Source: Escherichia phage IME08. From it: a stretch of 64,000 bases of DNA. A program made the position numbers and the translations under genes. The DNA lies in sequence record NC_014260.1; one strand, written 5' to 3'. Below are positions 13,753 to 52,979 of this stretch, in pieces. Position 1 is the first letter of the stretch, and the number at the start of each line of letters is the position of its first letter. The notes below the pieces were generated by a model that saw nothing but the letters and a program-made list of their open reading frames with translations, was not told the origin of the DNA and did no database searches.

Positions 13753-14045
13753 TGTCAGGCTTAAGTTACAACCAATGCGTAACGGCAGGTCATGAAGCAT
13801 GGCCTCCTACAGTAATAAATGCCACCCAAGGTAAAGTATTTACAGGTGGTATTCCTGTATTAGTTGCAGGAGACCCTATTACAGAACATACAGAAATTAA
13901 AAAACCATATGAAACCCACGGTGGGGTAACCCAACCTAGAACATCAAAGGTATATGTTACAGGCAAAAAGGCTGTCCAGATGGCAGACCCTATTTCATGC
14001 GGAGATACAGTCGCACAAGCCTCATCCAAAGTATTCATAAAATAG
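13752..14045 (+). CDS. 5.4: gp5.4 PAAR-type spike tip protein
   Basis: 97 aa; [18 protein letters not shown]...[19 protein letters not shown] matches T4 gp5.4. Confidence 0.9.
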
Positions 14046-14053
14046 GAATTAAA

Positions 14054-38967: not shown

Positions 38968-40527
38968 ATGAAAAAGAATGCATTAGTTCAAAAATGGTCC
39001 GCTCTGCTGGAAAACGAAGCTCTTCCTGAAATCGTTGGTGCTTCTAAACAAGCTATCATCGCTAAAATTTTCGAAAACCAGGAACAAGACATCCTGACTG
39101 CTCCAGAATATCGTGACGAAAAAATCTCCGAAGCATTTGGTTCTTTCCTGACTGAAGCTGAAATCGGTGGTGACCACGGTTATGATGCTACCAATATCGC
39201 AGCTGGCCAGACCTCTGGTGCTGTAACTCAGATTGGGCCGGCAGTAATGGGTATGGTTCGTCGTGCTATTCCTCATCTGATTGCTTTTGATATTTGTGGT
39301 GTTCAGCCTCTGAATAACCCTACTGGTCAGGTATTTGCACTGCGTGCAGTATACGGTAAAGACCCTATCGCTGCAGGCGCTAAAGAAGCTTTCCATCCGA
39401 TGTATGCTCCGAACGCTATGTTCTCTGGTCAGGGTGCTGCTGAAACTTTCGAAGCACTGGCTGCAAGCAAAGTTCTGGAAGTTGGTAAAATTTATTCTCA
39501 CTTCTTCGAAGCTACCGGTGCTGCACACTTCCAGGCTGTTGAAGCTGTGACCGTTGATGCAGGCGCTACTGATGCCGCTAAACTGGATGCTGCTGTTACC
39601 GCTCTGGTTGAAGCTGGTCAACTGGCTGAAATCGCTGAAGGTATGGCTACTTCTATCGCTGAACTTCAGGAAGGTTTCAACGGTTCTACCGATAACCCGT
39701 GGAACGAAATGGGCTTCCGCATCGACAAACAAGTTATCGAAGCTAAATCCCGTCAGCTGAAAGCAAGCTACTCTATCGAACTGGCACAGGACCTTCGTGC
39801 AGTACACGGTATGGATGCAGATGCTGAACTGTCCGGTATCCTTGCTACCGAAATTATGCTCGAAATCAACCGTGAAGTTATCGATTGGATTAACTACTCT
39901 GCACAGGTTGGTAAATCTGGTATGACCAACACCGTTGGCGCTAAAGCTGGTGTGTTTGACTTCCAGGACCCGATTGATATCCGTGGTGCTCGTTGGGCCG
40001 GTGAGAGCTTTAAAGCCCTTCTGTTCCAGATTGATAAAGAAGCAGCCGAAATCGCTCGTCAGACCGGTCGTGGTGCTGGTAACTTCATCATCGCTTCCCG
40101 TAACGTAGTTAACGTACTGGCTGCAGTTGATACTTCTGTAAGTTATGCAGCTCAAGGTTTGGGTCAGGGTTTCAACGTTGACACAACCAAAGCAGTATTT
40201 GCCGGTGTTCTTGGTGGTAAATATCGTGTTTACATCGACCAGTATGCTCGTTCCGATTACTTCACCATCGGTTATAAAGGTTCTAACGAAATGGACGCAG
40301 GTATCTACTATGCTCCGTACGTTGCACTGACTCCGCTGCGTGGTTCCGATCCGAAGAACTTCCAACCGGTAATGGGCTTCAAAACTCGTTACGGTATCGG
40401 TATTAACCCGTTCGCTGACCCAGCTGCTCAGGCGCCTACCAAACGTATTCAGAATGGTATGCCTGACATCGTTAACAGCCTCGGTCTGAATGGTTACTTC
40501 CGTCGCGTTTACGTTAAGGGAATTTGA
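38968..40527 (+). CDS. 23: gp23 major capsid protein
   Basis: 519 aa vs T4 521 aa; position. Confidence 0.95.
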   Translation: MKKNALVQKWSALLENEALPEIVGASKQAIIAKIFENQEQDILTAPEYRDEKISEAFGSFLTEAEIGGDHGYDATNIAAGQTSGAVTQIGPAVMGMVRRAIPHLIAFDICGVQPLNNPTGQVFALRAVYGKDPIAAGAKEAFHPMYAPNAMFSGQGAAETFEALAASKVLEVGKIYSHFFEATGAAHFQAVEAVTVDAGATDAAKLDAAVTALVEAGQLAEIAEGMATSIAELQEGFNGSTDNPWNEMGFRIDKQVIEAKSRQLKASYSIELAQDLRAVHGMDADAELSGILATEIMLEINREVIDWINYSAQVGKSGMTNTVGAKAGVFDFQDPIDIRGARWAGESFKALLFQIDKEAAEIARQTGRGAGNFIIASRNVVNVLAAVDTSVSYAAQGLGQGFNVDTTKAVFAGVLGGKYRVYIDQYARSDYFTIGYKGSNEMDAGIYYAPYVALTPLRGSDPKNFQPVMGFKTRYGIGINPFADPAAQAPTKRIQNGMPDIVNSLGLNGYFRRVYVKGI

Positions 40528-40585: not shown

Positions 40586-41257
40586 CTATAACTTATAGCA
40601 ATCGTCAAATTGAGGCCTTGTTTCTTTAATCCAATTACGAATGGTAGCTCCGGTAACATTAAAAAATTCGGCGGCGGTTTCGTATCTGTCAAATCTATAT
40701 CCTTTAATCATTATATCAACAAATACAAATTTCTTACCTTTATTAGAGTTCTCTCTAATTTTGGCTTTATGTTCTTCCGATAGTTTCCTACCTTTAAGAT
40801 GAGAATCCCTATTCTCATAAAACTTTTTATTAGCTATAGATTTGTTTTCTCGGTGCTCTTTGGATTCTTTAGAACCTGTTTTCGATTTAGACATTTTGGC
40901 CCTTACTTCCTTGGTCATACCTGCCTTGGTCTTTTCGGATAACATCTCACGATACCCAGGTTCCTGTAAAGCTACTATAACAGGATTACCCTTACCACCT
41001 AAAGCTGCATTATAAGTATCTGTTCTCATAACAAAAGCCTCGTCAACTAGTTCGGCTTCCTTAGCATACATCTCTTCAGATGTTTCGAAATTGAAAAGGA
41101 TTTCCTTTTTAAAATTCTCTAAGCCGTATTTCTTTATGGATTTTACTATGTTAACCCCGGAGCCCATATAAGAATCATTAACATCTGTAGTGGCATGGGC
41201 TCCAACATAAATCTTGTTATTAATGAGATTGGTTATTTTGTAAATTAAATAATTCAT
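40586..41257 (-). CDS. GIY-YIG homing endonuclease, SegD-like
   Basis: N-terminal IYKITNLINNKIYVGAH; 223 aa; sits between genes 23 and 24 as T4 segD does. Confidence 0.8.
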   Translation of the reverse strand: MNYLIYKITNLINNKIYVGAHATTDVNDSYMGSGVNIVKSIKKYGLENFKKEILFNFETSEEMYAKEAELVDEAFVMRTDTYNAALGGKGNPVIVALQEPGYREMLSEKTKAGMTKEVRAKMSKSKTGSKESKEHRENKSIANKKFYENRDSHLKGRKLSEEHKAKIRENSNKGKKFVFVDIMIKGYRFDRYETAAEFFNVTGATIRNWIKETRPQFDDCYKL

Positions 41258-41628: not shown

Positions 41629-42909
41629 ATGGCAAAGATTAACGAATTACTGCGCGAGTCAACAACTACTTCTAGCAACTCATTGGGTCGCCCTAATCTT
41701 GTTGCTTTGACCCGTGCTACAACCAAATTGATTTACCGTGATATTATTGCTGAACAACGTACTAGCCAGCCTATTGCTGCATTGTATGGTGTCAAATATC
41801 TTACCCCTGATAATGAATTCAGTTTCCAAACTGGTGCTGTTTATGGCGGTGAAGTTGGTTCTAAAGACCGTGAAACTATCCCAGAACTCACAGATAAGGC
41901 CCAGGCGATTGCCAAGGGTGAATATTTCAAGTATCAGAATATTGTTTATAAGGCTCTTCAAGCAAGCCCACTCGCATCCACTAGCGCTACAGAATTGGCT
42001 GATGCCCTTCAAGAAGGTTTGGTGTCATTAACATGTCGTCTGGTTCCTGATGCGGCTCACACAGAGAAATTCGAAGCAGGTGATGTTGAAATTAGCAATG
42101 CAGTATTCCAGGTTAATAAATGGAACGCACCTGTTAAGTCTCGTAAACTTAAAACCGCTTTGACTGTAGAACTAGCCCAAGACATGGAATCCAATGGCTT
42201 CGACGCCCCTGCATTCTTAGAAGACCTCCTGGCTACAGTAATGGCAGATGAAATTAATAAAGACGTTCTGCAGTCTCTAATAACTGTATCTAAACGCTAT
42301 AAAGTTACCGGTGTATCTGATAACGGTATTGTCGATTTGTCTTATGACAGTGCTCCGGAATCTGCACGTAAACTTTATGAAATGGTTTGTGAGATGAATT
42401 CTGAAATTCAGAAAACCACTTCTTATTCAGGTACGTTTGTTGTCGCATCTAGTCGTGTAGCTGCAATGCTTGCTGGTTCAGGTTGGTTGAAACATAAACC
42501 AGAAGATGAAGCTTGGCTCCCAGAAACCGCTTATGGTTATTTGATTAACGGATTGCCTGTATTCTGTGATGTTAATAGTCCTTTAGATTATGTTATCGTG
42601 GGCGTTAAAGAAGATTACGGCGGTAATGAAGTGGTTGGTTCTATTTTCTATGCTCCGTATACCGAAGGTCTGGATTTAGACGACCAAGAACATGTTGGTG
42701 CCTATAAAGTTATTGTAGACCCTGATAGTTTGCAACCGGCTATTTCTCTGATGGTTCGTTATGCACTTTCAGCAAACCCATATACCGTTGCTAAAGATGA
42801 TAAAGAAGCTCGTGTTATAGACGCAACTAATATGGATTTAATGGCAGGGCAGAGTAACATGTCTTATCTGCTTGGTGTTAAACTTCCTCCAATTATTTAC
42901 GAGGCATAA
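41629..42909 (+). CDS. 24: gp24 capsid vertex protein
   Basis: Collinear match to T4 gp24 (MAKINELLRESTTT, KSRKLKT..TVELAQD, NPYTVAKD.KEAR); TATAAATA upstream. Confidence 0.95.
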   Translation: MAKINELLRESTTTSSNSLGRPNLVALTRATTKLIYRDIIAEQRTSQPIAALYGVKYLTPDNEFSFQTGAVYGGEVGSKDRETIPELTDKAQAIAKGEYFKYQNIVYKALQASPLASTSATELADALQEGLVSLTCRLVPDAAHTEKFEAGDVEISNAVFQVNKWNAPVKSRKLKTALTVELAQDMESNGFDAPAFLEDLLATVMADEINKDVLQSLITVSKRYKVTGVSDNGIVDLSYDSAPESARKLYEMVCEMNSEIQKTTSYSGTFVVASSRVAAMLAGSGWLKHKPEDEAWLPETAYGYLINGLPVFCDVNSPLDYVIVGVKEDYGGNEVVGSIFYAPYTEGLDLDDQEHVGAYKVIVDPDSLQPAISLMVRYALSANPYTVAKDDKEARVIDATNMDLMAGQSNMSYLLGVKLPPIIYEA

Positions 42910-44193
42910 ATGAAAAAGATTAATGCATTAATACAAGAATCAACTTTGACGGCGGCCAACCAGGTCGCCCGTCCTAATCTTCTTTCATATACCCAGGCAA
43001 CTAATAAAAGAATTTTTAAAGCCCTTGTTGCTGAACAAAAAACTACTCAACCTGTTGCAGCATTATATGGTGTCCGTGTTTTAAACCCAGACGATAAAAT
43101 GACTTATCTCGGCGGAGCCACTTTTGCAGGCGAAATTGGTATGTTCGAACGTAAAAACATTCCTGAATTCACCGATAAAGACGAAGCATATGCTGTTGGT
43201 GATATGTTCCAATTCGAAAGTGTGGTTTTCAAGGTATTAGAAGCTTCTCCGTTTGCAGGAACAACTGAAACCGATTTGGGCGAAGTTATTTCAGAAGCTA
43301 TTGCCGCAGGCCATATTCGTATGATGTCTGATGCAGCCTTTACCAATAAATTTGAAAAAGGCCATCCTGAGATTGCTGAAGCAGGATTCCGTATTGATAA
43401 GTGGCAGACTGAAGTTAAATCGCGTAAACTTAAAACTTCTTTGACTGTAGAACTGGCCCAGGATTTAGAATCCAACGGGTTTAATGCACCAGACTTTATA
43501 GACAATATTTTGGCTATTCAAATGGCCGAAGAAATTAATAAAGACGTATTACAGTCCTTAATTACGGTAAGTTCTCGTTTTAAAGTCCAAGGAGTTTCCG
43601 AGAAAGGCGTCTTGAACTTAACAGACCCACAATATGATAACGCCCAAGACCGAGCGCGTACCTTGTATTACTATATGTGTGAAATGAATTCTGCTGTTCA
43701 ACGCCAGACTTCGTTTGCAGGTACTTATGCAGTAGCTTCTTCTCGTTGCGCCGCTATTTTAGCTGCATCCGGTTGGGTTGAGAAAAAAGAAGACCAAGAC
43801 GAATTAGCTTATGGCATATTAAAGAACGGTCTACCACTTTATGCTGATATGAATAGTCCGTGTGATTATGTTATTGTCGGTGTAAATGCTCAGATGGGTG
43901 AAGGGCAGACGGTCGCATCTTTGTATTATGCGCCTTATACGGAAGGGCTCGAAGAAGTTGATGATGAAGGTGATACTTCAGTAGGTGAATTCAAGGTTAT
44001 TGTAGACCCAGATTCATTGCAACCTACCATATCTTTATTGGCTCGGTATGCATTGACTGCGAATCCTTATACCGTCGCTAAAGACGACAAAGAAGCTCGT
44101 ATTATTGACGGTGCGGATATGGACAAAATGGCTAATCAAAGTCAATTGAGTTCTTATCTTGGTGTTAAACTTCCTCCACTTGAAAAAAGCTAA
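42910..44193 (+). CDS. gp24 paralog (second vertex-protein copy)
   Basis: 427 aa; same conserved blocks as gp24 but diverged; starts 1 nt after gp24 stop. Confidence 0.85.
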   Translation: MKKINALIQESTLTAANQVARPNLLSYTQATNKRIFKALVAEQKTTQPVAALYGVRVLNPDDKMTYLGGATFAGEIGMFERKNIPEFTDKDEAYAVGDMFQFESVVFKVLEASPFAGTTETDLGEVISEAIAAGHIRMMSDAAFTNKFEKGHPEIAEAGFRIDKWQTEVKSRKLKTSLTVELAQDLESNGFNAPDFIDNILAIQMAEEINKDVLQSLITVSSRFKVQGVSEKGVLNLTDPQYDNAQDRARTLYYYMCEMNSAVQRQTSFAGTYAVASSRCAAILAASGWVEKKEDQDELAYGILKNGLPLYADMNSPCDYVIVGVNAQMGEGQTVASLYYAPYTEGLEEVDDEGDTSVGEFKVIVDPDSLQPTISLLARYALTANPYTVAKDDKEARIIDGADMDKMANQSQLSSYLGVKLPPLEKS

Positions 44194-44205
44194 TAGGAGA
44201 AATAT

Positions 44206-44412
44206 ATGGTAGATGAAACCCTGTTTGGTCATGACGGAAGAGGCAACTTTAGTGGCAAATCCTTAATTCAGCCAGAAGAGTCTATTATAATTCCGTTTTC
44301 GAACATCAGAATTTCTACAGAAAAGATAAAGTTAAATGAAGTTGAAGTTAACAATTTAGCAAAAAGTATTTTAGAATCAACAACCCAAGAAGAGGTTCAT
44401 AGTGTGTTTTAG
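44206..44412 (+). CDS. 68-aa ORF, likely N-terminal segment of the collagen-like protein
   Basis: ATG with SD aggaga; ends HSVF-TAG in a T4 run; LFGHDGRG motif shared with mini-ORF at 47032. Confidence 0.5.
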
Positions 44413-45602
44413 GAATAAACAATTCCCAGATAGAGCCAATAGAGGGTCCGCCGGGCCCTCAAGGAGACCCGGGCCCACAAGGTATTCAAGGCCCGCCCGG
44501 CCCTCAAGGAGACCAAGGTCCACAAGGTATTCAAGGCCTTAAAGGAGATAAAGGAGATACAGGTCCACAAGGTATTCAGGGCCTACAAGGACCCAAAGGA
44601 CCTAAAGGAGACCAGGGTCCACAAGGCATTCAAGGGCCTATAGGTCCTATAGGTCCCGCAGGGCTAATATGGAAAGGAGAATGGGATGTAGATACACTTT
44701 ACTCTGTCGATGATGCTGTTGGATATGCAGGTGCATCATATTTTTGTATAGCCGAAAATACCGGTAATATACCCACAGAATCGCCGGAAAACTGGGCCTT
44801 ATTAGCATCGCAAGGAGCTAGAGGAGAATCAGGGGCCCAGGGCCTACAAGGACCCAAAGGGGATAAAGGAGATACGGGTCTTCAAGGTATTCAAGGACCC
44901 AAAGGGGATAAAGGAGATACAGGTCTTCAAGGACCTATAGGGCCTATAGGACCTAAAGGAGACCAGGGTCCTCAAGGTTCTAGAGGTATTCAAGGTATTC
45001 AAGGTCCCCAAGGAGACCAGGGCCCACAAGGTTCTAGAGGTATTCAAGGTATTCAAGGACCTCAAGGAGACCAAGGTCCGCAAGGCCTTCAAGGACCCCA
45101 AGGAGATAAAGGAGAGGATGGATTCGGAATTGATTCTAAAATAAGTGGGGTATATAAAATTCCTGCATCCGGAACCAAAGGACAATTTTATATAAACTTA
45201 CCTGGGGCAGGTGGTCTTAGATTGATTGTATCAACGGCTGGGACAGGTAATGCTGTTAAAATAGGATACGGAGGTAACTCTAGCACTGTTCAAAGAACAT
45301 TTACTATAGGATATAATTTAACAGCTAATTATACCGATTTGGCAAAAATAAAAACCGGTAGGATAAATTATACAGGGTATACTTCGGTTTCATATAGTAG
45401 CGATACAACGGCTCTAGTCGGATATGGGGATATGTATACAGCAATAGCCTCTAATAAAGATACTTTAGATTCATGGCATATAGTAATATCAGGCGTAGTG
45501 GCAAAATCATCTGCTTCGGCCACTGATGGAAGATTACTTATATCTGTAACTAAAGTTTTTGATTCCGAAACTCAACAGATTCAAACAGGTGAAATATATT
45601 AA
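44403..45602 (+). CDS. collagen-like fiber protein with embedded carbohydrate-binding-like motif; no in-frame start, -1 frame relative to 44206 ORF
   Basis: About 400 open codons with two G-X-Y blocks, a W...Y..D.V.Y.G..Y.C...TG..P....P..W motif and a globular C-terminus; first usable start is TTG at 45222. Confidence 0.55.
44445..45122 (+). repeat. collagen-like G-X-Y triplet repeat region, two blocks
   Basis: Read directly: [16 protein letters not shown]... and [19 protein letters not shown]... Confidence 0.85.
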
Positions 45603-45608
45603 AACATA

Positions 45609-45626
45609 AAGGGCCGCAAGGCCCTT
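45609..45626. terminator. bidirectional stem-loop between collagen-like gene and rnlB
   Basis: AAGGGCC-GCAA-GGCCCUU between convergent genes. Confidence 0.65.
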
Positions 45627-45631
45627 ATCAT

Positions 45632-46639
45632 TTATTTGGATACTAGTTCAATCCAAACATGTCTTAATGTTTCTTTTACACACTCAATGAGCTGCTTTTT
45701 AACTTCAACAGGATTTTCAGCGTCAGTTAATTCTAATTCTTCACGGGCAGCTTCTTCAAGGATATCTTGGACCGTCAAGCCCATTACCTTTCCAAAATCC
45801 TTTTTGGAAACTTCGCCAATCTTACTGATAACATTGTTAATACGGTTAACAGTCACATAATCAGTGAATTGCCACATCAAATCCATATCGTCTTGGGATA
45901 AAACTACCGCAGCCTTAATAGGCTTATCAGACTTTTTCTTCTCGCTGAATTTAGAGTTCTTACATTTAATCGCTACACGATTTCCGTTTGGAAGCCAGGT
46001 AGGAATATCAGGTTTAAGTACAAAGCCTTCAGCCGTGAATACTTTACCTTCTACCTTAGGAATAAAGTCTGTAGAGTTTGCAATAGTTAGGCCGGCGTTA
46101 TCCACCGCAAAATTATAATCAGGAATAACTGAATCAAAGTCATTAGGTAATTTAATAAGGTCTTCAAAGCTACCTGTAGCCAGACATGGGGCTACCTTAA
46201 ACTTATGGATAATACAGAAGGCTTCCATCAATGTATCGGTTAGAACAGATTCTGAACCGTCTTCCTTAGTAACTCGGATATCGAACACATAAAAGTCTTT
46301 ATCACCGTAGTCCACATTCTTCTGGATACCTGGTCCAGCGAATTCGCCATAAATCTGGTACGACTGATAATTAATCGATTCAATTAGATGTTGAACAGAT
46401 TTAATAGAATCAGCATAGTTCTTAAGTACAATTTCATAACCATAGAAATCTTCAGCAGGGAGGATAGGGCCAGTGCGCTTGGCGCATGTGACTGCGTCAC
46501 GTTCTATGATTAAACTAAAGTTGGTCCCGTGAATCTTCTCACGTGCAACCCATTCACCACCAGTCAAACCGTTGATACGGAGTTTTTCGATAAACTTACT
46601 GTTGTAGTGGTTTTCGAGACTGCTATATTTCTTGAACAT
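45632..46639 (-). CDS. rnlB: RNA ligase 2
   Basis: N-terminus [21 protein letters not shown] matches T4 Rnl2; 335 aa. Confidence 0.95.
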
Positions 46640-46753
46640 AAATCACCATAATAAATATAATTAAATAGAAGAGCTAGTATTCTTCTGTCACCAAGCCAAA
46701 TGGTTTAACGGAAGGACCTAGACCCATTATAACACATCTAAATTTAAAGCATA

Positions 46754-46963
46754 TTACTTTGAACTAGAACGCGCTTTGCGCCGAACCTTGTTGTTCAATC
46801 TTTTACGATAGACAATCTTTTCTTTCGCTTTAAATTTGGCCTTAGCATTCTCAACTTCGGTCCAAGCTTTAGCCATATCTCTGGCGGTTCCGCCAATCTT
46901 TTTAGCAATATCAATAAAATTCATACCCGATTCATGTAAAAAATGTACTTTAATCTTATCCAT
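46754..46963 (-). CDS. small basic protein with HTH-like segment
   Basis: ORF track; segment MNFIDIAKKIGGTARDMAKAW; K/R-rich tail. Confidence 0.45.
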   Translation of the reverse strand: MDKIKVHFLHESGMNFIDIAKKIGGTARDMAKAWTEVENAKAKFKAKEKIVYRKRLNNKVRRKARSSSK

Positions 46964-47031
46964 AACAATTCTCTTGTGATTTGACTATTCAATAATAACA
47001 TGAGAATTTTAACTTGTAAACAGGAGATTTT

Positions 47032-47106
47032 ATGCCAGACAATCCATTATACGGGCATGACGGTAGAGGTGTATCATTAGAACTCACTAGTGAAAGCACC
47101 TTTTAA
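47032..47106 (+). CDS. 24-aa upstream mini-ORF (MPDNPLYGHDGRG...)
   Basis: ATG with SD aggag; stop lies in SD of next gene; N-terminus resembles 44206 ORF. Confidence 0.4.
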   Translation: MPDNPLYGHDGRGVSLELTSESTF

Positions 47107-47115
47107 GGAGGTTAA

Positions 47116-47982
47116 ATGATTGCACTTAAAATAAATGGTCCTAGATATGAATTGGTTGGTAAGACTGTAACGTTGTATACCGCATTTGTATTACCAGCAG
47201 GTTTGACTCTAGATGATATAGAAATTAATTGGTATAAAAATAATGTCCATGTCCCACAACTTCCTATTGAAGACCCTTTTGAATTGAATTTATGGGATGT
47301 TGGATATCCGGCGGCAGGAACATTTTATGCAACTATAACAAACAAGAAAAGTGGTGAAATAACAAAGAGTAATGAAATAGAACTTGAAATAGGTGTCATT
47401 CCAAGAAGAGTAATCCTGGATATAAGCTCTAGGGAATTAATATATGCCGATATAGGAGAAACCGTTTCACTTCGCCCGTCGTGTAGAGTAGAACCTACTT
47501 ATGCCGTACGTGATTGTAGATGGTATAGAAATGGAGTAGAATTATCTAACGATGAAGATATTGATATAACAATAGATAGTTCTGATAAATTCGGTACATA
47601 CATGTTGAAATCTATAGCGACCTGCGAAGGAGCGTATATCCCTGCTTCTGAAGAACTTTTAGTTGAAATAAAACCTAGAGGGGGTGTATTGCAGTGCCCG
47701 TTCATATATGATAACGACCTTAATGCCTATTTACCATATGGCGGCGGAAGAAATGAATCTTATATGTGGATAGGTTGGTGGGTGTGGGACGAAATAAGAG
47801 AAGCCGTTAGATTAGGAGAAGATTGGACGTTGGATATAAACAACAGCCGTTACAAGTATAAATGTGAGTTACAAAAAGTAGCCGACCTTTTGTCTAAGTA
47901 TCATGAAGTAGAGATACAAGAATCTAGAAACGGATATATTCTGGGGCGTAAAGACTTGCTTTATGTTCCGCCTGTACCATAA
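47116..47982 (+). CDS. Hoc-like capsid decoration protein paralog (2 Ig-like domains + Hoc C-terminal domain)
   Basis: C-terminus YMWIGWWVWDEIR...EVEIQESRNGYI parallels Hoc capsid-binding domain; two N-terminal repeats of about 90 aa. Confidence 0.75.
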   Translation: MIALKINGPRYELVGKTVTLYTAFVLPAGLTLDDIEINWYKNNVHVPQLPIEDPFELNLWDVGYPAAGTFYATITNKKSGEITKSNEIELEIGVIPRRVILDISSRELIYADIGETVSLRPSCRVEPTYAVRDCRWYRNGVELSNDEDIDITIDSSDKFGTYMLKSIATCEGAYIPASEELLVEIKPRGGVLQCPFIYDNDLNAYLPYGGGRNESYMWIGWWVWDEIREAVRLGEDWTLDINNSRYKYKCELQKVADLLSKYHEVEIQESRNGYILGRKDLLYVPPVP

Positions 47983-47987
47983 AAAAA

Positions 47988-48013
47988 TAAAGGGACCCGA
48001 AGGTCCCTTTTTA
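47988..48013. terminator. bidirectional rho-independent terminator between Hoc-like gene and hoc
   Basis: A-run, AGGGACC-CGAA-GGUCCCU, T-run. Confidence 0.8.
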
Positions 48014-48014
48014 A

Positions 48015-49148
48015 TTAATAAACGTAATCGTAAATAATTCCAGCATCCAAAGCGGTTCTGTGAATAATTCTACCATTACGAGATTCCTGTACATCAACCT
48101 CCGGATAGTCAGTAATCATTTTTTGAAGAGTATAACGATGGAGATAGAAATCACTATCAGGGTCATCGGTTTTCCAGTCTTTGCCTTCAAGAGTCATTTT
48201 CTGGATTTCGTCCATAACCCACCAACCACACCAGATATAAGCTGAATTGCGAACTGGTAGCGGATGAACGTAAGGTAGTTCGCCCTCTGGAACTGGTGCG
48301 ACTTTAGCCGTGACTGTTACATTACCAGTTTTGGTAACAGTCGTAGGGTTATAATCGGCGGCCGAAACAACAGCAGAAACTTCAATAACCTGTGAACCTT
48401 CAGCGCTTGTGTCAATTACTAATGTATCTGTAGCACCCACAACAGGTGAACCGTCTTTCTTCCAAGAATAAGCAAAAGTGGCACCACTAGGCGCACCTGC
48501 TACGGTAGCTTTAAAAGAAGCCGGAGTTCCTTCAGGTACATTAATAGAGGCTGGCGTTAAATTAACAGAAACCCCAGACATTGTTTTCTTAACAAAAGAA
48601 ACCGTTACGCCTTTAGCAGCAGTTGCTGAACCGTATTCCGGAGAGGTAACAGTAACTTCACAATTCAAGGTATAATTTGCTTCGGCTGCTTCAGTTAGTG
48701 TAATAGTTTTAGAGGTTTGGCCTGAAATTACGGTGGTATTTCGTTTCCAAACATAATTAATTGTTGCACCAGCAGGAGCACCGGTTACATTAGCCGTAAC
48801 AACTTGGGATTGGCCGACTTCTTTAGAAACGGAAGTAGGGTCCAAAGCCAAAGAGATATCCATAGTTTTATTAGATACAGTAACTTCAAAGGTGTCTTCG
48901 GCTGTCTCAAGAGGACCCGCATCGCCAGGGTCAGAAGTTACTACTACTTTTATAACTTTCTTACCCGCAGGAGCAGCACCCGTATATCTCAAAACATTAG
49001 TGGTTTCTGGGTTAGCAGCTCCATCAACGGTCCATACATATGCAATGGTTCCACCTGTTACAACTGCGTCGGTTGCGGTAGCAGTGTAGTTAGCGCTTTC
49101 GCCTATTTTCATAGACGCTGCGCCGGCTATACTTACAGTAAAGGCCAT
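48015..49148 (-). CDS. hoc: Hoc highly immunogenic outer capsid protein
   Basis: 377 aa; C-terminal half near-identical to T4 Hoc (TGNVTVTAKVAP.PEGELPYVHPLP...WCGWWVMDEIQKMT). Confidence 0.95.
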   Translation of the reverse strand: MAFTVSIAGAASMKIGESANYTATATDAVVTGGTIAYVWTVDGAANPETTNVLRYTGAAPAGKKVIKVVVTSDPGDAGPLETAEDTFEVTVSNKTMDISLALDPTSVSKEVGQSQVVTANVTGAPAGATINYVWKRNTTVISGQTSKTITLTEAAEANYTLNCEVTVTSPEYGSATAAKGVTVSFVKKTMSGVSVNLTPASINVPEGTPASFKATVAGAPSGATFAYSWKKDGSPVVGATDTLVIDTSAEGSQVIEVSAVVSAADYNPTTVTKTGNVTVTAKVAPVPEGELPYVHPLPVRNSAYIWCGWWVMDEIQKMTLEGKDWKTDDPDSDFYLHRYTLQKMITDYPEVDVQESRNGRIIHRTALDAGIIYDYVY

Positions 49149-49157
49149 AGTTTACCC

Positions 49158-49835
49158 TTATTTTAAAGTGACAAAAGATGAATTACGCGTTTCACGTACT
49201 AATACTGAGCCATTACGATTGATGTAATAAATCAGACTGAATAATGTTTGGTGGGCTGAAGGATGTTGGAAATCTTTAGGACGTTCTTTCCAATCAGGGG
49301 TTTCAGAAATCCATTGATAAATCCACCAAGGAACAGTACAGTAACCTGGGTTTTTACCAATAAGCAAAAGATTGGGACTAAAGTTTTCAGGGAGTTCAAA
49401 TTTAGGTTTTTCTGATTCTTTAACCAAGGTTATAGCTTGATTGAATTTCTCTTCGACAAACGGAACAACTTCTTCAATAATCTCGACCTTAGGAAGTTCG
49501 ACTACCTCAACGACTTCAACTACAGCCTCAGGGGCATCGAACAACAGGGTTGCTTCTTCTTTAGCAGGTTCGGCTCCATCAATAAATTCATTAGAACCTG
49601 TAAGTTCGTCAGCAGCATCAATCAAATCAGAAATGGACAAACCTTCGGTTTCTGGAAGTGGTTCGTCGGCCAGGGCTTTAAGACCTTCAGTGATATCGAT
49701 AATCAAATTATCAAACGAACGGGTTTTCTTAAGTTTTAAACCGAACTGTTCGCCGTATTCGATTAACTTAGCTTTAGCTTCTTTTTTATCTTCGAGTGCA
49801 CGAAGCTCTTCAATATATTGGCGGTCCATAATCAT
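49158..49835 (-). CDS. inh: Inh, inhibitor of prohead protease
   Basis: 225 aa vs T4 226 aa; position upstream of hoc; minus-strand TATAAATA. Confidence 0.7.
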   Translation of the reverse strand: MIMDRQYIEELRALEDKKEAKAKLIEYGEQFGLKLKKTRSFDNLIIDITEGLKALADEPLPETEGLSISDLIDAADELTGSNEFIDGAEPAKEEATLLFDAPEAVVEVVEVVELPKVEIIEEVVPFVEEKFNQAITLVKESEKPKFELPENFSPNLLLIGKNPGYCTVPWWIYQWISETPDWKERPKDFQHPSAHQTLFSLIYYINRNGSVLVRETRNSSFVTLK

Positions 49836-49849
49836 TCTCTTTTCTAGTG

Positions 49850-49871
49850 TATAAATATAACTATATTTATA
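49850..49871. promoter_or_regulatory. divergent late promoters (TATAAATA on + for uvsW, on - for inh)
   Basis: Exact octamers on both strands. Confidence 0.6.
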
Positions 49872-49885
49872 ACTGAGAATTACTT

Positions 49886-51382
49886 ATGCAAATTCAAGTA
49901 CATTTCGATAATTTTAGTCATGTTCGTATTGAGTGTGATGAATCCACATTCTACGAACTCAGAGACTATTTTAGCTTTGAAGCTGATGGATATAAATTCA
50001 ACCCTAAATTTCGTTATGGTCAATGGGACGGACGTATTCGCCTTCTGGATTATAATCGTAAACTTCCTTATGGATTGGTTCCGCAGATTAAAAAATTCGC
50101 TGAACAATTTGAATACTCTCTGTGGATTGACCCACGTATTCTTGAACAGGAAGATATTTCTCGTGAAGATTTTGACTCATGGGTGGCATCTCAAGAAATT
50201 TATTCAGGGTCTACCAAGATTGAGCCCCATTGGTATCAGAATGAAGCCGTATACAACGGTCTAACAAAACGTCGCGCAATTCTGAATTTACCTACATCTG
50301 CAGGTAAATCATTAATCCAGGCGCTCCTGAGTCGATACTACGTTGAGAACTATGAAGGTAAAATTCTTATCTTAGTTCCTACTACTGCACTCGTTGACCA
50401 GATGATTAATGACTTCATCGATTATCGGTTGTTCCCTAAAGCCGCAATGCTTGGAATTCGTTCAGGTACTGCTCGTGATTCTGATGCAATGATTTACGTT
50501 TCGACTTATCAAACTGCTATTAAGCAACCTAAAGAATGGTTTGCTCAGTTTGGTATGTTTATGAACGATGAATGTCATTTGGCTACAGGTAAATCTATTT
50601 CTACCATCATCGAAGGCCTAACCAACTGTATGTTTAAATTCGGTTTGTCTGGTTCTTTAAAAGATGGTAAAGCTAATTTAATGCAATATATGGGTTTGTT
50701 TGGTGATGTGTTTAAACCTGTTTCCACCTCCCAATTGATGGAAGAAGGACAGGTTACAGACCTTAAAATCAACAGTATTTTCCTTCGATACCCAGACGAA
50801 TTCACTGTTAAGATGAAAGGTAAAGATTACCAATCAGAAATTAAAGTCATTACTAAGGCTACTCGTCGTAATAAATGGGTTGCTAATTTAGCTGTTAAAC
50901 TCGCTAAGAAAGAAGAGAACGTATTCCTGATGTTTAAAAACATCGAACACGGTAAAACTCTTTTTGAAATGGTTAAAGAGCAACATAAAGAAGTTTATTA
51001 CGTATCAGGTGAAGTTAATACCGAAACGCGTAATGCTCTGAAAGTAATGGCGGAAAATGGTAAGGGTATTATTGTTGTGGCAAGTTATGGTGTGTTCTCT
51101 ACTGGTATTTCTGTTAAGAACCTTCATCACGTTGTATTTGCTCACCCAGTAAAATCCAAAATCATTGTACTCCAGACAATTGGTCGTGTACTCCGTAAAC
51201 ATGCTTCCAAATCAACAGCGCAAGTATGGGATATCATCGACGACATGGGTGTTAAGCCTAAATCAGCTACGGCTAAAAAGAAATATGTTCATTTGAACTA
51301 CGCCCTCAAACACGCTTTAGAACGTATTCAACGTTATGCTGATGAGAAATTTAATTACGTAATGAAACAGGTGGATTTATGA
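49886..51382 (+). CDS. uvsW: UvsW helicase
   Basis: Walker A PTSAGKS, DECH box; 498 aa; TATAAATA upstream. Confidence 0.9.
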   Translation: MQIQVHFDNFSHVRIECDESTFYELRDYFSFEADGYKFNPKFRYGQWDGRIRLLDYNRKLPYGLVPQIKKFAEQFEYSLWIDPRILEQEDISREDFDSWVASQEIYSGSTKIEPHWYQNEAVYNGLTKRRAILNLPTSAGKSLIQALLSRYYVENYEGKILILVPTTALVDQMINDFIDYRLFPKAAMLGIRSGTARDSDAMIYVSTYQTAIKQPKEWFAQFGMFMNDECHLATGKSISTIIEGLTNCMFKFGLSGSLKDGKANLMQYMGLFGDVFKPVSTSQLMEEGQVTDLKINSIFLRYPDEFTVKMKGKDYQSEIKVITKATRRNKWVANLAVKLAKKEENVFLMFKNIEHGKTLFEMVKEQHKEVYYVSGEVNTETRNALKVMAENGKGIIVVASYGVFSTGISVKNLHHVVFAHPVKSKIIVLQTIGRVLRKHASKSTAQVWDIIDDMGVKPKSATAKKKYVHLNYALKHALERIQRYADEKFNYVMKQVDL

Positions 51383-51862: not shown

Positions 51863-52531
51863 CTATTTATTAGCCAAATTCTTTTCAAATGTTTTAACCA
51901 TATAACCTACATCTAAATCAGGAAATCCATTCTCAACTATTATGCGTTGAAATTTCCTTCTTTTAGGCATTCCTTCCTTTATCCAAAGTTCACGGATTTC
52001 CTTTTCAAATTCCCATAATTTACTTCTCATAGAAAGCTTAGGCTGTGAATGTTTACCTATATGGGCCTCATTAGCCTCTTTGGTACGTTTCTTACCTAAT
52101 TTGGCTAATGACATAGCTTTTTTAGCTTCTTCTGTATGAGAATATGGATTTCTTTTATGACCCGCACTTATGGCTTGTTTGGTGGATTCAGACCTTGGAA
52201 TACCTCGTATTTTCGACGCACTCTTTTCAATAGATTCAGGAGAACGAGTAGTACAACTACCTCCTTCACCACCAGGTTTCATATTCATACAGCGAATACC
52301 TTTACCAAACTTATCCCAAGCCTCTTCTATCAAAAGCTCTTCGAATTCATAAGCAAGTTGTTCGGTATCGAAAAAAGTCCTATCGACTATTTCAATTCGG
52401 TATTTTAATCTTTTTGCATAATAGATGTAATTACCAGACCCTACATACTTGTCAGATATTTTATCAGAAGAATGCTTACCAAAATATCGCCTAGTTCCGT
52501 TAGGCGAGTATACTAAAGTTTGGTAGCACAT
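51863..52531 (-). CDS. GIY-YIG homing endonuclease (Seg-like)
   Basis: N-terminal VYSPNGTRRYFGKH...YVGSG; basic C-terminus; start may be 52561. Confidence 0.75.
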   Translation of the reverse strand: MCYQTLVYSPNGTRRYFGKHSSDKISDKYVGSGNYIYYAKRLKYRIEIVDRTFFDTEQLAYEFEELLIEEAWDKFGKGIRCMNMKPGGEGGSCTTRSPESIEKSASKIRGIPRSESTKQAISAGHKRNPYSHTEEAKKAMSLAKLGKKRTKEANEAHIGKHSQPKLSMRSKLWEFEKEIRELWIKEGMPKRRKFQRIIVENGFPDLDVGYMVKTFEKNLANK

Positions 52532-52541
52532 ATGGTACTTT

Positions 52542-52979
52542 TTATTTTTCACCTGCTTCAAATTTCCTGAGCTCCAACATATTCTTTAATGAGAAACCTC
52601 TGGCTTTGACTGCGTCTAAAGCCGAACTACAGAAGTCCTGTAATAAAGCCCAATACTGGATTGACGTATCGATTTTAATTACACTAGAATCTGCAGCCAT
52701 TACGGTCTTTAATTCAGACTTCTCATATTGGTCCATACAAACCTCATCACCAGGCTCTCCACGTCCCGTGTAGAAATCTAATCGCTTCTTAAGTGAGGTC
52801 TTTTTCTGGATTTCTAATCTCATTATTTCTTTCTTACAATTCGTATACAGTCTTAGCCATTTGCTGTGCAGCAAAACGTTGTTCTGTACTTCATACTGTA
52901 AACGAGTCCCATCAATCTTCAAATCTTCATCCAAAGCATCTTGAAACGACTCTAATTTATATTCAATCTCTTTACTCAT
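52542..52979 (-). CDS. uvsY: UvsY recombination mediator
   Basis: LQYEV.NNV, RLDFYTGRG, YEKSELKTV, QYWALLQDFCS.ALDA motifs match T4 UvsY; start moved to ATG 52979. Confidence 0.9.
   Translation of the reverse strand: MSKEIEYKLESFQDALDEDLKIDGTRLQYEVQNNVLLHSKWLRLYTNCKKEIMRLEIQKKTSLKKRLDFYTGRGEPGDEVCMDQYEKSELKTVMAADSSVIKIDTSIQYWALLQDFCSSALDAVKARGFSLKNMLELRKFEAGEK

What the first reader, a model, noticed from the sequence alone, without database searches (positions are those of the whole stretch)
47032..49148. Second Hoc-like decoration protein, convergent with hoc, preceded by a mini-ORF
47116..47982 encodes 288 aa with two Ig-like repeats and a C-terminal block (YMWIGWWVWDEIR...EVEIQESRNGYILGRK) that parallels the Hoc capsid-binding domain of the adjacent hoc gene (WCGWWVMDEIQKMT...EVDVQESRNGRIIHR). 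The two genes converge on one bidirectional terminator. A 24-aa mini-ORF upstream (MPDNPLYGHDGRG...) shares its N-terminal motif with the 68-aa ORF before the collagen-like gene ([13 protein letters not shown]...), pointing to a duplicated N-terminal module. T4 has a single hoc.
Basis: partly seen in the sequence, partly recalled or inferred. Interest (0 to 1): 0.65.

Follow-up and report, generated by a model that had tools for sequence, protein, structure and literature searches.

The report
Orphaned second Hoc head-decoration gene
This T4-like coliphage carries a real second copy of the Hoc capsid-decoration gene, of a type already annotated in related phages. The tiny ORF in front of it is the scar of a deleted collagen-like fibre gene that precedes this type of Hoc gene in nearly every other phage genome examined.

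Summary
ORF 47116-47982 (288 aa) is a genuine Hoc-family protein with two Ig-like domains and the Hoc capsid-binding domain. [quoted passage not shown] Thirteen T4 Hoc residues named as capsid contacts or loop structure are identical.

A second hoc is not new. Orthologues are annotated in phages dhabil, CLB_P2, JS10, CGG4-1 and Aeromonas phage 65 ("hoc-2"). Fokine et al. 2023 describe two-Hoc phages.

The new point is context. This Hoc subfamily normally follows a collagen-like fibre gene with a conserved N-terminus (L[FY]GHDGRG), usually 9 nt upstream. The 24-aa mini-ORF is that gene after in-frame deletions of 12, 39 and 1380 nt. It is a scar, not a duplicated module.

The 68-aa ORF begins a second, diverged family member (465 aa if one T is restored). 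That gene is inserted between gp24b and rnlB.

hoc2 stays under purifying selection in the lineage carrying the deletion (omega 0.15). It most likely binds gp23* hexamer centres alongside canonical Hoc. Whether it anchors the collagen fibre is plausible but unproven.

Verdict: new member of a known kind, moderate interest.

The parts
47022..47026 (+). Shine-Dalgarno AGGAG of the former collagen-like partner gene, now serving the mini-ORF
   Evidence: Read from the sequence. The block is conserved with dhabil, JS10 and L006 upstream regions. It overlaps the -35 of a minus-strand early-type promoter at 47020..46992.
47032..47106 (+). 24-aa mini-ORF, the in-frame deletion scar of the collagen-like fibre gene (dhabil_240 type, 501 aa). 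It keeps codons 1-13, small pieces of the N-terminal module, and the last codon plus stop.
   Evidence: Alignment to dhabil L001 5337-6842 gives three in-frame gaps of 12, 39 and 1380 nt. Junctions lie at about 47063/47064, 47080/47081 and 47101/47102, the last inside the microhomology AGCACnTT. The same scar is present in an independent Logan contig, L013, at about 98-99% identity.
47105..47111 (+). Shine-Dalgarno AAGGAGG of hoc2, overlapping the stop codon of the mini-ORF
   Evidence: Read from the sequence. Most intact cassettes have the same 9-nt spacing; the others have overlapping genes.
47116..47982 (+). hoc2: 288-aa Hoc-family decoration protein (pI 4.7)
   Evidence: phrog_1149 'Hoc-like head decoration' at E=1.9e-42 over residues 6-281. 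BLASTP to the adjacent Hoc at E=1e-17. T4 Hoc PDB sequence at E=4e-13. Between the window and L013, omega is 0.15.
47116..47397 (+). Ig-like domain 1 (residues 1-94), carrying the subfamily-specific conserved block WYK...PQLPxEDPxxLxLxDVG[YF]PAAGT[FY]YA
   Evidence: AF2 model, Foldseek top hit RB49 Hoc Ig domains 3SHS at E=5e-13, and conservation in alignment A3. The motif occurs only in Hoc-like proteins paired with a GHDGRG-type partner.
47398..47676 (+). Ig-like domain 2 (residues 95-187)
   Evidence: AF2 model with pLDDT above 88. Weak Pfam I-set and Ig_2 hits.
47692..47979 (+). Hoc capsid-binding domain (residues 193-288), with R212, Y216, W218, W221, W222, D225 and Q268-ESRNG-Y274
   Evidence: [quoted passage not shown] That hit has E=2.6e-6 and TM 0.67; the next hit has E=0.56. 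Residue mapping comes against the contacts listed in PMC10385173.
47989..48010 (.). Shared hairpin between the convergent hoc2 and hoc genes; a plausible bidirectional intrinsic terminator
48015..49148 (-). Canonical hoc (377 aa, three Ig domains plus capsid-binding domain), probably co-transcribed with inh from the late-promoter motif TATAAATA at 49871 (-)
   Evidence: phrog_1149 at E=1e-108. TATAAATA positions are listed.
44206..45602 (+). Second member of the same collagen-like fibre family (phrog_5073). It is read in two frames, 44206-44412 and then about 44403-45602, and gives 465 aa if one T is added.
   Evidence: phrog_5073 at E=8e-106 and Pfam Collagen at E=3e-29. Three-frame translation. 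Restoring one T gives an uninterrupted ORF with the conserved LGI motif. The gene is a clean insertion relative to IME341.
44407..44410 (+). T4 run where the reading frame of the collagen-like gene breaks (-1 relative to the ATG frame)
   Evidence: An identical 68-aa product is on record in metaclust.
45609..45626 (.). Hairpin between the collagen-like gene and the convergent rnlB, the same layout as at hoc2/hoc

Best explanation
ORF 47116-47982 is an intact paralogue of hoc. It belongs to an old 'hoc-2' subfamily with two Ig-like domains and the Hoc capsid-binding domain.

Its most likely action is inferred, not shown. After capsid expansion, one monomer would dock through its C-terminal domain into the centre of a gp23* hexamer, using the same contacts as T4 Hoc. 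It would therefore share or compete for the roughly 155 hexamer sites with the canonical Hoc encoded convergently next to it. The virion surface would then carry two kinds of acidic Ig fibres.

In nearly every other genome examined, this subfamily is the second gene of a two-gene cassette. The first gene encodes a collagen-like fibre protein with a conserved N-terminal module, M-x-D-x-x-L[FY]GHDGRG-x-[FY]-x-G.

In the window, that first gene has been removed by in-frame internal deletions. What remains is its ribosome-binding site, start codon, 24 codons and native stop codon. That remnant is the 'mini-ORF'.

The 68-aa ORF at 44206 is the N-terminus of another, diverged member of the same fibre family. 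That gene is inserted between gp24b and rnlB and is interrupted by a one-base frame change.
For: Shown by tools:
- Family membership by sequence: phrog_1149 at E=2e-42, T4 Hoc residues 299-364 at E=4e-13, and the adjacent Hoc at E=1e-17.
- Fold: two Ig domains whose top hit is RB49 Hoc 3SHS. The capsid-binding domain model matches only 8t1x_X, at E=2.6e-6 and TM 0.67.
- Contacts: thirteen T4 Hoc residues named as gp23* contacts or loop structure are identical in hoc2. They are R300, Y304, W306, W309, W310, D313, Q354, E355-G359 and Y360 (alignment).
- Docking site: the window's gp23 keeps the Hoc-binding segment G326-R344 at 18 of 19 positions, including D336, P337 and R344.
- Scar origin: alignment to dhabil_240 shows deletions of 12, 39 and 1380 nt, with the microhomology AGCACnTT at the large junction. 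The same scar occurs in the independent contig L013.
- Cassette: 11 intact GHDGRG-type cassettes were found in 10 non-redundant loci, against none upstream of 39 other Hoc-CBD ORFs. The N-terminal module occurs in 26 of 50,697 phage records, once per record. Where I checked, it lies just upstream of a hoc2-type gene; AP1 keeps only a stub.
- Still functional: 9 synonymous against 5 non-synonymous differences between the two deletion-bearing sequences, omega 0.15, binomial P=6.5e-4.
Against: There is no direct evidence that the protein is in virions.

No canonical T4 late promoter (TATAAATA) lies within 3 kb upstream on the + strand, so timing of expression is unknown. Cassettes in L009 and L012 do have one at -63.

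Two T4 contact residues, Y293 and H295, fall in a region where hoc2 has a 9-residue insertion and align ambiguously. H299 is Gly in hoc2.

The selection estimate rests on only 14 substitutions.
Confidence: 0.8

Rival explanations
1. Hoc-2 is mainly an adaptor. Its Ig1 domain would dock the conserved N-terminal module of the collagen-like trimer, so the cassette would build a two-component head fibre. In this phage, the fibre would be supplied in trans by the gene at 44206-45602, which has the same N-terminal module and a different distal domain. Alternatively, it is not supplied at all if that gene's frameshift is real.
For: - Near-perfect co-occurrence and tight spacing of the two genes across Tevenvirinae, Emmerichvirinae and unclassified Straboviridae.
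- The fibre family has a conserved N-terminus and variable C-terminal domains, the usual polarity of an anchored fibre.
- Ig1 of hoc2 is unusually conserved for a Hoc Ig domain, and its motif occurs only with GHDGRG-type partners. Cassettes whose partner has another N-terminus (VR5, VR26) carry a different Ig1.
- Cronus keeps Ig1 but lacks Ig2 and still has a partner.
- In PspYZU05, VR5 and IME341 the losses affect both genes.
- The window is the only genome seen with hoc2 lacking an intact adjacent partner, and the only one with a GHDGRG-type gene elsewhere.
- SPP1 gp12 is a precedent for a collagen-like trimer at hexamer centres.
Against: The co-variation of Ig1 and the partner N-terminus can be explained by inheritance of the cassette as one unit, without any physical contact.

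No complex prediction could be run. There is a monomer-to-trimer symmetry mismatch.

The trans partner is frameshifted as sequenced.

hoc2 stays under purifying selection without an adjacent partner, which argues for at least some partner-independent role.
Confidence: 0.35
2. hoc2 is a functionless relic that will decay, now that its cassette partner is lost.
For: The cassette is visibly decaying in several lineages. IME341 keeps only scraps, VR5 a 17-aa scar, PspYZU05 a truncated pair and AP1 a stub. No late promoter was found upstream.
Against: The 288-codon ORF is intact and has a strong Shine-Dalgarno sequence. All 13 mapped contact or structural residues are kept. Omega is 0.15 among sequences that already carry the deletion, P=6.5e-4.
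Confidence: 0.1
3. The mini-ORF is itself functional. It could be a retained peptide carrying the GHDGRG motif, or a leader whose translation is coupled to hoc2.
For: All three deletions are in frame and preserve the native start, ribosome-binding site and stop codon next to the hoc2 Shine-Dalgarno sequence. VR5's scar is also in frame. N-terminal stubs recur in PspYZU05 and AP1.
Against: The only difference between the two known copies of the mini-ORF is a Gly8-to-Arg change in the most conserved motif. IME341's remnant is out of frame. hoc2 has its own strong Shine-Dalgarno sequence. The conserved DNA upstream is explained by the divergent early promoter of gene 24.3.
Confidence: 0.1
4. One reading: a recent duplication within this genome produced a second hoc and a duplicated N-terminal module, which would be a peculiarity of this phage.
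For: Two Hoc-CBD genes and two LxGHDGRG starts do exist in the window.
Against: hoc2 is 88.5% identical to dhabil_241 and 38-62% identical to orthologues in other genera, but only 29% identical to its neighbour Hoc. The two N-terminal regions share 25 of 39 nt. One of them is about 95% identical to the 5' end of dhabil's gene. The other resembles the partners in TH15 and ABTNLsp5, at 75% over 24 aa.
Confidence: 0.03

Closest known systems
[quoted passage not shown]
   Same: It has the same C-terminal capsid-binding fold and the same contact residues (WW, R300, D313, the ESRNG loop). It also has N-terminal Ig-like domains and an acidic pI of 4.7.
   Different: It has two Ig domains rather than three, and a 9-residue insertion before the conserved Arg. 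Identity is only about 29-43%, confined mainly to the capsid-binding domain. It is encoded on the opposite strand as an additional copy.
Annotated second hoc genes: dhabil_241 and CLB_P2 UNI73281, JS10 EpJS10_0177, CGG4-1 'Hoc I', ABTNLsp5 'Hoc I', Aeromonas phage 65 hoc-2
   Same: These are orthologues at 88.5%, 48%, 62%, 43% and 38% identity respectively. They share the two-Ig plus capsid-binding architecture. Within Dhakavirus and Gelderlandvirus they occupy the same position, convergent with hoc.
   Different: All of these have an intact collagen-like gene directly upstream. The window has only a 24-codon scar.
Second short Hoc of Serratia phage Muldoon (314 aa, two Ig plus C-terminal domain) and the two Hoc-like proteins of Enterobacter phage PG7 (Fokine et al. 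2023, PMC10385173)
   Same: This is the published recognition that some T4-like phages encode two Hoc proteins, and that the capsid-binding domain is used to display other modules.
   Different: That paper does not mention a collagen-like neighbour. I did not examine the Muldoon locus.
SPP1 gp12 (collagen-like trimer binding the centre of capsid hexamers; reviewed in PMC7602432)
   Same: It is a precedent for a collagen-like fibre displayed at hexamer centres. This is what the hoc-2 cassette might build.
   Different: gp12 binds the capsid directly and has no Hoc-like adaptor. No sequence relationship was tested or claimed.
phrog_5073 collagen-like 'tail fiber proteins' (JS10 EpJS10_0176; Cronobacter phages CR3 and CR8; Escherichia phage LTH01)
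   Same: The window gene 44206-45602 matches this family at E=8e-106. Its C-terminal domain is 36-42% identical to those of LTH01, CR3 and CR8.
   Different: CR8-type proteins have another N-terminus (VYFGYALYD). Their neighbours show no similarity to Hoc.

Membership tests
Hoc family (T4 Hoc; phrog_1149) | C-terminal domain homologous in sequence to T4 Hoc residues 281-376 | tested here: met
   phmmer against the PDB gives T4 Hoc 299-364 versus hoc2 211-278 at E=4e-13. phrog_1149 scores E=1.9e-42. BLASTP to the neighbouring Hoc gives E=1e-17.
Hoc family (T4 Hoc; phrog_1149) | C-terminal domain adopts the fold of the capsid-bound T4 Hoc domain | tested here: met
   The AF2 model of residues 193-288 (pLDDT 84.4) has 8t1x_X as its only significant Foldseek hit, at E=2.6e-6, TM 0.67 and 32% identity. 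The next hit has E=0.56.
Hoc family (T4 Hoc; phrog_1149) | Conserved capsid-contact residues: ESRNG loop, W309/W310, R300, D313 and the aromatic base | tested here: met
   Thirteen of 13 residues mapped are identical, against the list in PMC10385173. Y293 and H295 align ambiguously. H299 is Gly.
Hoc family (T4 Hoc; phrog_1149) | String of N-terminal Ig-like domains | tested here: met
   Two beta-sandwich domains in the model. The top structural hit is RB49 Hoc 3SHS at E=5e-13.
Hoc family (T4 Hoc; phrog_1149) | A matching docking site on the phage's own major capsid protein | tested here: met
   The window's gp23 matches T4 gp23 at 18 of 19 positions in G326-R344, including D336, P337 and R344.
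Hoc family (T4 Hoc; phrog_1149) | Protein present on mature capsids, one per gp23* hexamer | not testable with these tools
   This needs virion proteomics, cryo-EM or in vitro binding.
Hoc family (T4 Hoc; phrog_1149) | Late-gene expression (TATAAATA promoter) | tested here: inconclusive
   No TATAAATA lies at 44100-47116 on the + strand; the best matches have one mismatch. Related cassettes L009 and L012 have a perfect motif at -63.
hoc-2 / collagen-like fibre cassette (informal grouping defined here) | hoc2-type Ig1 with the conserved block ...DVG[YF]PAAGT[FY]YA | tested here: met
   Residues 61-72 of hoc2. With the strict pattern, the motif was found in 10 Hoc-like ORFs next to a GHDGRG-type partner and in none of 39 unpartnered ORFs. 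dhabil and L006 differ only at the first residue.
hoc-2 / collagen-like fibre cassette (informal grouping defined here) | Intact collagen-like gene with GHDGRG N-terminus immediately upstream on the same strand | tested here: not met
   Only a 24-codon remnant remains at 47032-47106. An unlinked, frameshifted family member lies at 44206-45602.
Collagen-like fibre family phrog_5073 (for the 68-aa ORF plus the downstream frame) | N-terminal module, Gly-X-Y repeats, internal GLxWKGxW...GASYFC domain and a C-terminal globular domain in one reading frame | tested here: inconclusive
   All modules are present (phrog_5073 at E=8e-106; Pfam Collagen), but they are split over two frames at the T run 44407-44410. 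One added T restores a 465-aa ORF. I cannot tell a sequencing error from a real mutation.

The most novel reading that the evidence does not exclude
The hoc-2 cassette encodes a two-component head fibre that has not been described. Hoc-2 would be a capsid-anchored adaptor whose conserved Ig1 domain holds the N-terminal GHDGRG module of a collagen-like trimer. The trimer's exchangeable C-terminal domain would point outward.

The window phage would then be a natural 'split cassette'. The anchor sits at the hoc locus, and a fibre with a new distal domain sits at the gp24b/rnlB site. The region as a whole would be a hotspot where such fibres are swapped and lost, leaving in-frame scars.
Probability: 0.35. 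Interest if true: 0.6.

Novelty: new member of a known kind. Interest (0 to 1): 0.35.

Why it matters
In itself this is one more example of a second Hoc, which databases and one structural paper already recognise.

Its value lies in what the comparison exposes. One Hoc subfamily is almost always paired with a collagen-like fibre gene across distant T4-like phages. I found no paper in the searchable library that mentions the pairing.

If Hoc-2 really anchors that fibre, T4-like capsids would carry a modular, exchangeable surface fibre. That bears on how phages adhere to mucus or cells. It also bears on the T4 Hoc display platform used for vaccines and delivery.

The window phage, with the anchor kept and the adjacent fibre deleted, would be a ready-made natural control for testing this.

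Tried and rejected
- **Whole-protein Foldseek against the PDB.** It was dominated by Ig-domain hits, so the capsid-binding domain was invisible. A domain-only model solved this.
- **Late promoter upstream of hoc2.** None was found. The sigma-70-like matches are no more numerous than in shuffled sequence.
- **Programmed -1 frameshift at 44403-44412.** Rejected as unlikely. The overlap window (GTG TTT TAG) has no X XXY YYZ slippery heptamer, and the T run is only 4 nt long. A lost T from a T5 run fits the conserved ..LGI.. motif.
- **Intact copies of the window's collagen-like gene.**
  - Megablast against phages found nothing.
  - A protein search with the C-terminal domain found nothing.
  - Pattern scans of viral and metagenome contigs across the T run found nothing.
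  - The N-terminal query returned only an identical 68-aa entry.
- **Hoc-like neighbours of the CR8 fibre.** I tested whether the neighbours of the CR8 (rV5-like) collagen fibre resemble Hoc-like Ig domains, which would have supported the adaptor idea. There was no similarity.
- **Link between gp24 duplication and hoc2.** Rejected. I first misread the collagen-like gene as replacing gp24b. The window has both gp24a and gp24b, and IME341 has both without hoc2.
- **Literature searches.** Searches for JS10 or JS98 hoc, Dhakavirus plus Hoc, 'hoc-2', and 'Hoc-like' plus collagen found nothing relevant. Sathaliyawala 2010 and Fokine 2011 are not held in the library.
Full report
**What the window is**

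The window is part of a T4-like coliphage of the genus Dhakavirus.
- The block from gp20 to rnlB is 99% identical to phage IME341 and about 96% identical to JS98.
- The gene order around the finding is as follows:

| Feature | Coordinates | Strand |
|---|---|---|
| gp23 | 38968-40527 | + |
| homing-endonuclease-like ORF | 40586-41257 | - |
| gp24a | 41629-42909 | + |
| gp24b | 42910-44193 | + |
| collagen-like gene | 44206-45602 | + |
| rnlB | 45632-46639 | - |
| gene 24.3 homologue (DUF2774) | 46754-46963 | - |
| mini-ORF | 47032-47106 | + |
| hoc2 | 47116-47982 | + |
| hoc | 48015-49148 | - |
| inh | 49158-49835 | - |
| uvsW | 49886-51382 | + |

**Checking the observation**

- hoc2 is a 288-codon ORF with a strong Shine-Dalgarno sequence, AAGGAGG, at 47105-47111.
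- It aligns with the neighbouring Hoc at E=1e-17 over 176 residues. The WIGWWVWDEI and QESRNGYI blocks are included.
- The two genes converge on one hairpin at 47989-48010. It is stable on both strands (-13.8 and -15.2 kcal/mol, with no shuffle of 200 as good). U-rich tails follow in both directions.
- The mini-ORF and the 68-aa ORF both begin M-x-D-x-x-L-[YF]-GHDGRG.

**Is hoc2 really a Hoc?**

Yes, by every test I could run.
- *Sequence.* phrog_1149 'Hoc-like head decoration' matches at E=1.9e-42 over residues 6-281. The T4 Hoc sequence from PDB entries 5VF3 and 8T1X matches residues 211-278 at E=4e-13.
- *Whole-protein structure.* The AlphaFold2 model built on 13 subfamily sequences has mean pLDDT 86.9. 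It shows two beta-sandwich domains (residues 1-94 and 95-187) and an alpha/beta C-terminal domain. Its best PDB match is the Ig-domain crystal structure of RB49 Hoc, 3SHS, at E=5e-13.
- *C-terminal domain alone.* A separate model of residues 193-288 (pLDDT 84.4) has exactly one significant PDB match. That match is 8t1x_X, 'T4 Hoc C-terminal domain bound to the vertex-proximal gp23* capsomer', at E=2.6e-6, TM 0.67 and 32% identity. The next hit has E=0.56.
- *Contact residues.* Fokine et al. 2023 (PMC10385173) list the T4 Hoc residues that touch gp23* or hold the binding loop. On the alignment, R300, Y304, W306, W309, W310, D313, Q354, E355-S356-R357-N358-G359 and Y360 are all identical in hoc2. 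They correspond to R212, Y216, W218, W221, W222, D225, Q268, E269-G273 and Y274. H299 is Gly. Y293 and H295 fall next to a 9-residue insertion and align ambiguously.
- *Docking site.* The gp23 segment G326-R344 is identical in the window's gp23 at 18 of 19 positions, including D336, P337 and R344.
- *Charge.* Both Hoc proteins of the window have pI 4.7. That is the acidic character emphasised for Hoc in the same paper.

**Is a second hoc new?**

No.
- The tblastn search found 1142 phage records with a Hoc-CBD match and 1179 places, so a small minority of genomes carry more than one.
- Full-length orthologues of hoc2 are already annotated as a second Hoc:
  - dhabil, dhaeg, CLB_P2 and Ec2-ASingh at 88.5% identity;
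  - CGG4-1 'Hoc I' at 62%;
  - JS10 'hoc head outer capsid protein' at 48%;
  - TH15 and ABTNLsp5 at 43%;
  - Aeromonas phage 65 'hoc-2, second copy of the hoc gene' at 38%.

- Fokine et al. 2023 also describe a second, two-Ig Hoc in Serratia phage Muldoon and two Hoc-like proteins in Enterobacter phage PG7.
- hoc2 is much closer to these orthologues than to its own neighbour (29%). The paralogy is therefore old and not a recent duplication in this genome.

**What the mini-ORF is**

In most of those relatives, the hoc2-type gene is preceded on the same strand by a collagen-like gene, usually with a 9-nt gap. The partner sizes are:

| Phage or locus | Partner length (aa) |
|---|---|
| dhabil, CLB_P2 | 501 |
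| CGG4-1 | 539 |
| JS10 | 335 |
| phage 65 | 354 |
| ABTNLsp5 | 609 |
| GomatiRiver_11 | 469 |
| metagenomic loci L006, L009, L012 | 488-586 |

All of these partners begin with the motif seen in the mini-ORF. Aligning the window to dhabil shows the following.
- Window 47000-47063 equals the dhabil 5' UTR plus codons 1-10.
- 12 nt are then missing, between two TAGAGG repeats.
- 17 nt match, then 39 nt are missing.
- 21 nt match, then 1380 nt are missing. The junction lies inside the microhomology AGCACnTT.
- The last codon, the stop codon and the hoc2 Shine-Dalgarno sequence follow.

The deletions total 1431 nt, or 477 codons, which leaves 24 of 501. The mini-ORF is therefore a deletion scar.

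It is not an assembly artefact. An independent Logan contig (L013, run SRR27732225) has the same scar at about 98-99% identity. Its single difference inside the mini-ORF changes Gly8 of the conserved motif to Arg.

**What the 68-aa ORF is**

- The three-frame translation shows that the 68-aa ORF and the collagen-like ORF overlap by a few codons in different frames.
- The frame changes at a T4 run, 44407-44410.
- Adding one T gives an uninterrupted 465-aa protein with the conserved ...LGI... junction. It has Gly-X-Y repeats, the internal GLxWKGxW...GASYFC domain, more Gly-X-Y repeats and a globular C-terminal domain.
- The downstream frame matches phrog_5073 at E=8e-106, the same family as dhabil_240.
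- The C-terminal domain is 36-42% identical to the 'tail fiber' proteins of LTH01, CR3, CR8 and related phages.
- Relative to IME341, the whole gene plus a hairpin (45609-45626) is a clean 1414-nt insertion between the stop codons of gp24b and rnlB.
- Its first 24 residues are 75% identical to the partners in TH15 and ABTNLsp5.
- At the DNA level its first 13 codons share 25 of 39 nt with the mini-ORF.

The two 'modules' are therefore diverged family members. I could not decide whether the frame change is a sequencing error or a mutation. An identical 68-aa product is on record in metaclust, and no intact copy was found.

**The cassette**

I scanned all fetched loci for Hoc-CBD ORFs and their upstream neighbours.
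- 11 intact cassettes with a GHDGRG-type collagen partner were found in 10 non-redundant loci. One locus, L012, carries two in tandem.
- Three cassettes (VR5, VR26 and a relative) have a collagen partner with a different N-terminus, VFYGYSLYD. That N-terminus resembles the CR8 fibre. These cassettes also have a different Ig1.
- 39 other Hoc-CBD ORFs have no such neighbour.
- Two further cassettes are divergent. FBB1's partner has collagen repeats but does not match the GHDGRG pattern. Phynn's 239-aa partner matches the module only weakly, at E=0.05.

In the other direction, tblastn with the 68-aa N-terminal module finds it in only 26 of 50,697 phage records, once per record. For the records I checked by coordinates or annotation, it lies just upstream of the hoc2-type gene. 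Aeromonas phage AP1 is the exception and keeps only a 78-aa stub.

In FBB1 and Cronus the whole cassette sits between gp24 and rnlB. That is the site where the window has its lone collagen gene.

The cassette is also visibly unstable.
- IME341 keeps only scraps of the partner's 5' end and has no hoc2.
- VR5 has a 17-aa scar, MPDILERKDLLYIPLVP. It consists of the first three codons of the partner fused in frame to the last 14 codons of hoc2.
- PspYZU05 has a 49-aa stub and a Hoc-like gene truncated in Ig2.

**Is hoc2 still functional here?**

The window and L013 both carry the scar, so their divergence post-dates the deletion. In hoc2 they differ by 9 synonymous and 5 non-synonymous changes. 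This gives omega 0.15, with binomial P=6.5e-4 against neutrality. Against dhabil, omega is 0.08 in the capsid-binding domain, 0.21 in Ig1 and 0.37 in Ig2. hoc2 is therefore maintained without an adjacent partner.

**How it most likely works**

*Inferred from T4.* Hoc-2 binds as a monomer to the centre of expanded gp23* hexamers through the conserved base and ESRNG loop. It therefore shares the sites with the canonical three-Ig Hoc, and virions would display a mixture of the two.

*Hypothesis, about 0.35.* Ig1 of Hoc-2 docks the N-terminal module of the collagen-like trimer, so the cassette builds a head fibre with an exchangeable tip. Several observations favour this:
- the tight linkage of the two genes;
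- the conserved-N, variable-C polarity of the fibre family;
- the unusual conservation of Ig1, and its restriction to GHDGRG-type partners;
- the retention of Ig1 but not Ig2 in Cronus;
- the window's reciprocal 'half cassettes' at the two known cassette sites.

Several points count against it:
- all the co-variation can be explained by descent of the cassette as a unit;
- no complex model could be run;
- the trans partner is frameshifted as sequenced;
- hoc2 is conserved without an adjacent partner.

**Open points**

No TATAAATA late promoter lies upstream of hoc2, although L009 and L012 cassettes have one at -63. The conserved DNA just upstream of the mini-ORF is explained by a minus-strand early-type promoter for gene 24.3, TTTACA-17-TATTAT with TG, at 47020..46992.

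**Verdict**

The 'duplicated module' reading is replaced by 'deletion scar plus a second, frameshifted family member'. The gene is a new member of a known kind. The cassette association is the only part that goes beyond existing annotation. No paper in the searchable library contains both 'Hoc-like' and 'collagen', and Fokine et al. 2023 never use the word 'collagen'.

Noticed in passing
window 44206-45602 (frame break at 44407-44410): A collagen-like fibre gene of phrog_5073 is split over two reading frames at a T4 run. Adding one T restores a 465-aa ORF. Relative to the 99%-identical phage IME341, it is a clean 1414-nt insertion between gp24b and rnlB. Its C-terminal domain resembles the fibres of rV5-like phages (LTH01, CR3, CR8).
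   Followed up: yes
window 45609-45626: A second GC-rich hairpin lies between convergent genes, here the collagen-like gene and rnlB. The layout mirrors the hoc2/hoc hairpin.
   Followed up: partly
L056 (IME341) 13995-14313: The closest relative lacks hoc2 but keeps scraps of the partner gene's 5' end. These are a 7-codon ORF after the same ribosome-binding site, then ..LTMLGSSQSYGREL.., matching dhabil_240 residues 43-56. A terminator and a small minus-strand membrane-protein-like ORF follow.
   Followed up: partly
L020 (phage VR5), about 80-30 nt upstream of the collagen gene start at 2090: A 17-aa scar ORF, MPDILERKDLLYIPLVP, joins the first 3 codons of a GHDGRG-type partner in frame to the last 14 codons of a hoc2. 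A whole cassette was deleted in frame. Directly downstream lies a different cassette, with a VFYGYSLYD-type fibre and a Hoc-like gene.
   Followed up: partly
L012 1892-6861 (Logan SRR10097265 contig): Two fibre plus hoc2 cassettes lie in tandem (488 aa + 278 aa, then 586 aa + 286 aa). They are convergent with a 932-aa Hoc.
   Followed up: no
L017 (Pseudomonas phage PspYZU05) 3873-4534; L061 (Aeromonas phage AP1) 4495-4731: These are further decayed cassettes. PspYZU05 has a 49-aa N-terminal stub and a Hoc-like gene that begins inside Ig2. AP1 has a 78-aa 'tail fiber like' stub with no Hoc-like gene after it.
   Followed up: partly
L059 (Erwinia phage FBB1) 1082-2912; L032 (Erwinia phage Cronus) 2986-4498: In these Erwinia phages (FBB1 is a Roskildevirus) the whole cassette sits between gp24 and rnlB, the site of the window's lone collagen gene. 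The Cronus Hoc-like protein has only one Ig domain, of the Ig1 type.
   Followed up: partly
window 48015-49148 compared with L056 14349-15767: The canonical hoc has three Ig domains (377 aa) here, against about 470 aa in IME341, dhabil and JS10. Its 3' part is 89% identical to IME341 and the rest is far more diverged. KIT01 is the best DNA match at 92.8%. The hoc gene itself is mosaic.
   Followed up: no
window 46992-47020 (-): An early-type promoter (TTTACA, 17 nt, TG-TATTAT) points toward the DUF2774 (24.3) gene. It overlaps the ribosome-binding region of the mini-ORF, which explains why that DNA is conserved among Dhakavirus genomes.
   Followed up: partly
window 49850 (+) and 49871 (-): Perfect late-promoter motifs (TATAAATA) lie back to back between inh and uvsW. 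They would drive inh-hoc on one strand and uvsW on the other.
   Followed up: no
window 40586-41257 (-) and 51863-52561 (-): The first is a 223-aa ORF between gp23 and gp24a with a weak SegE GIY-YIG match (E=2e-4). The same ORF is annotated as a homing endonuclease in IME341. The second is a 232-aa ORF after uvsW.1 with no Pfam hit that looks like another mobile endonuclease. This was not verified.
   Followed up: partly
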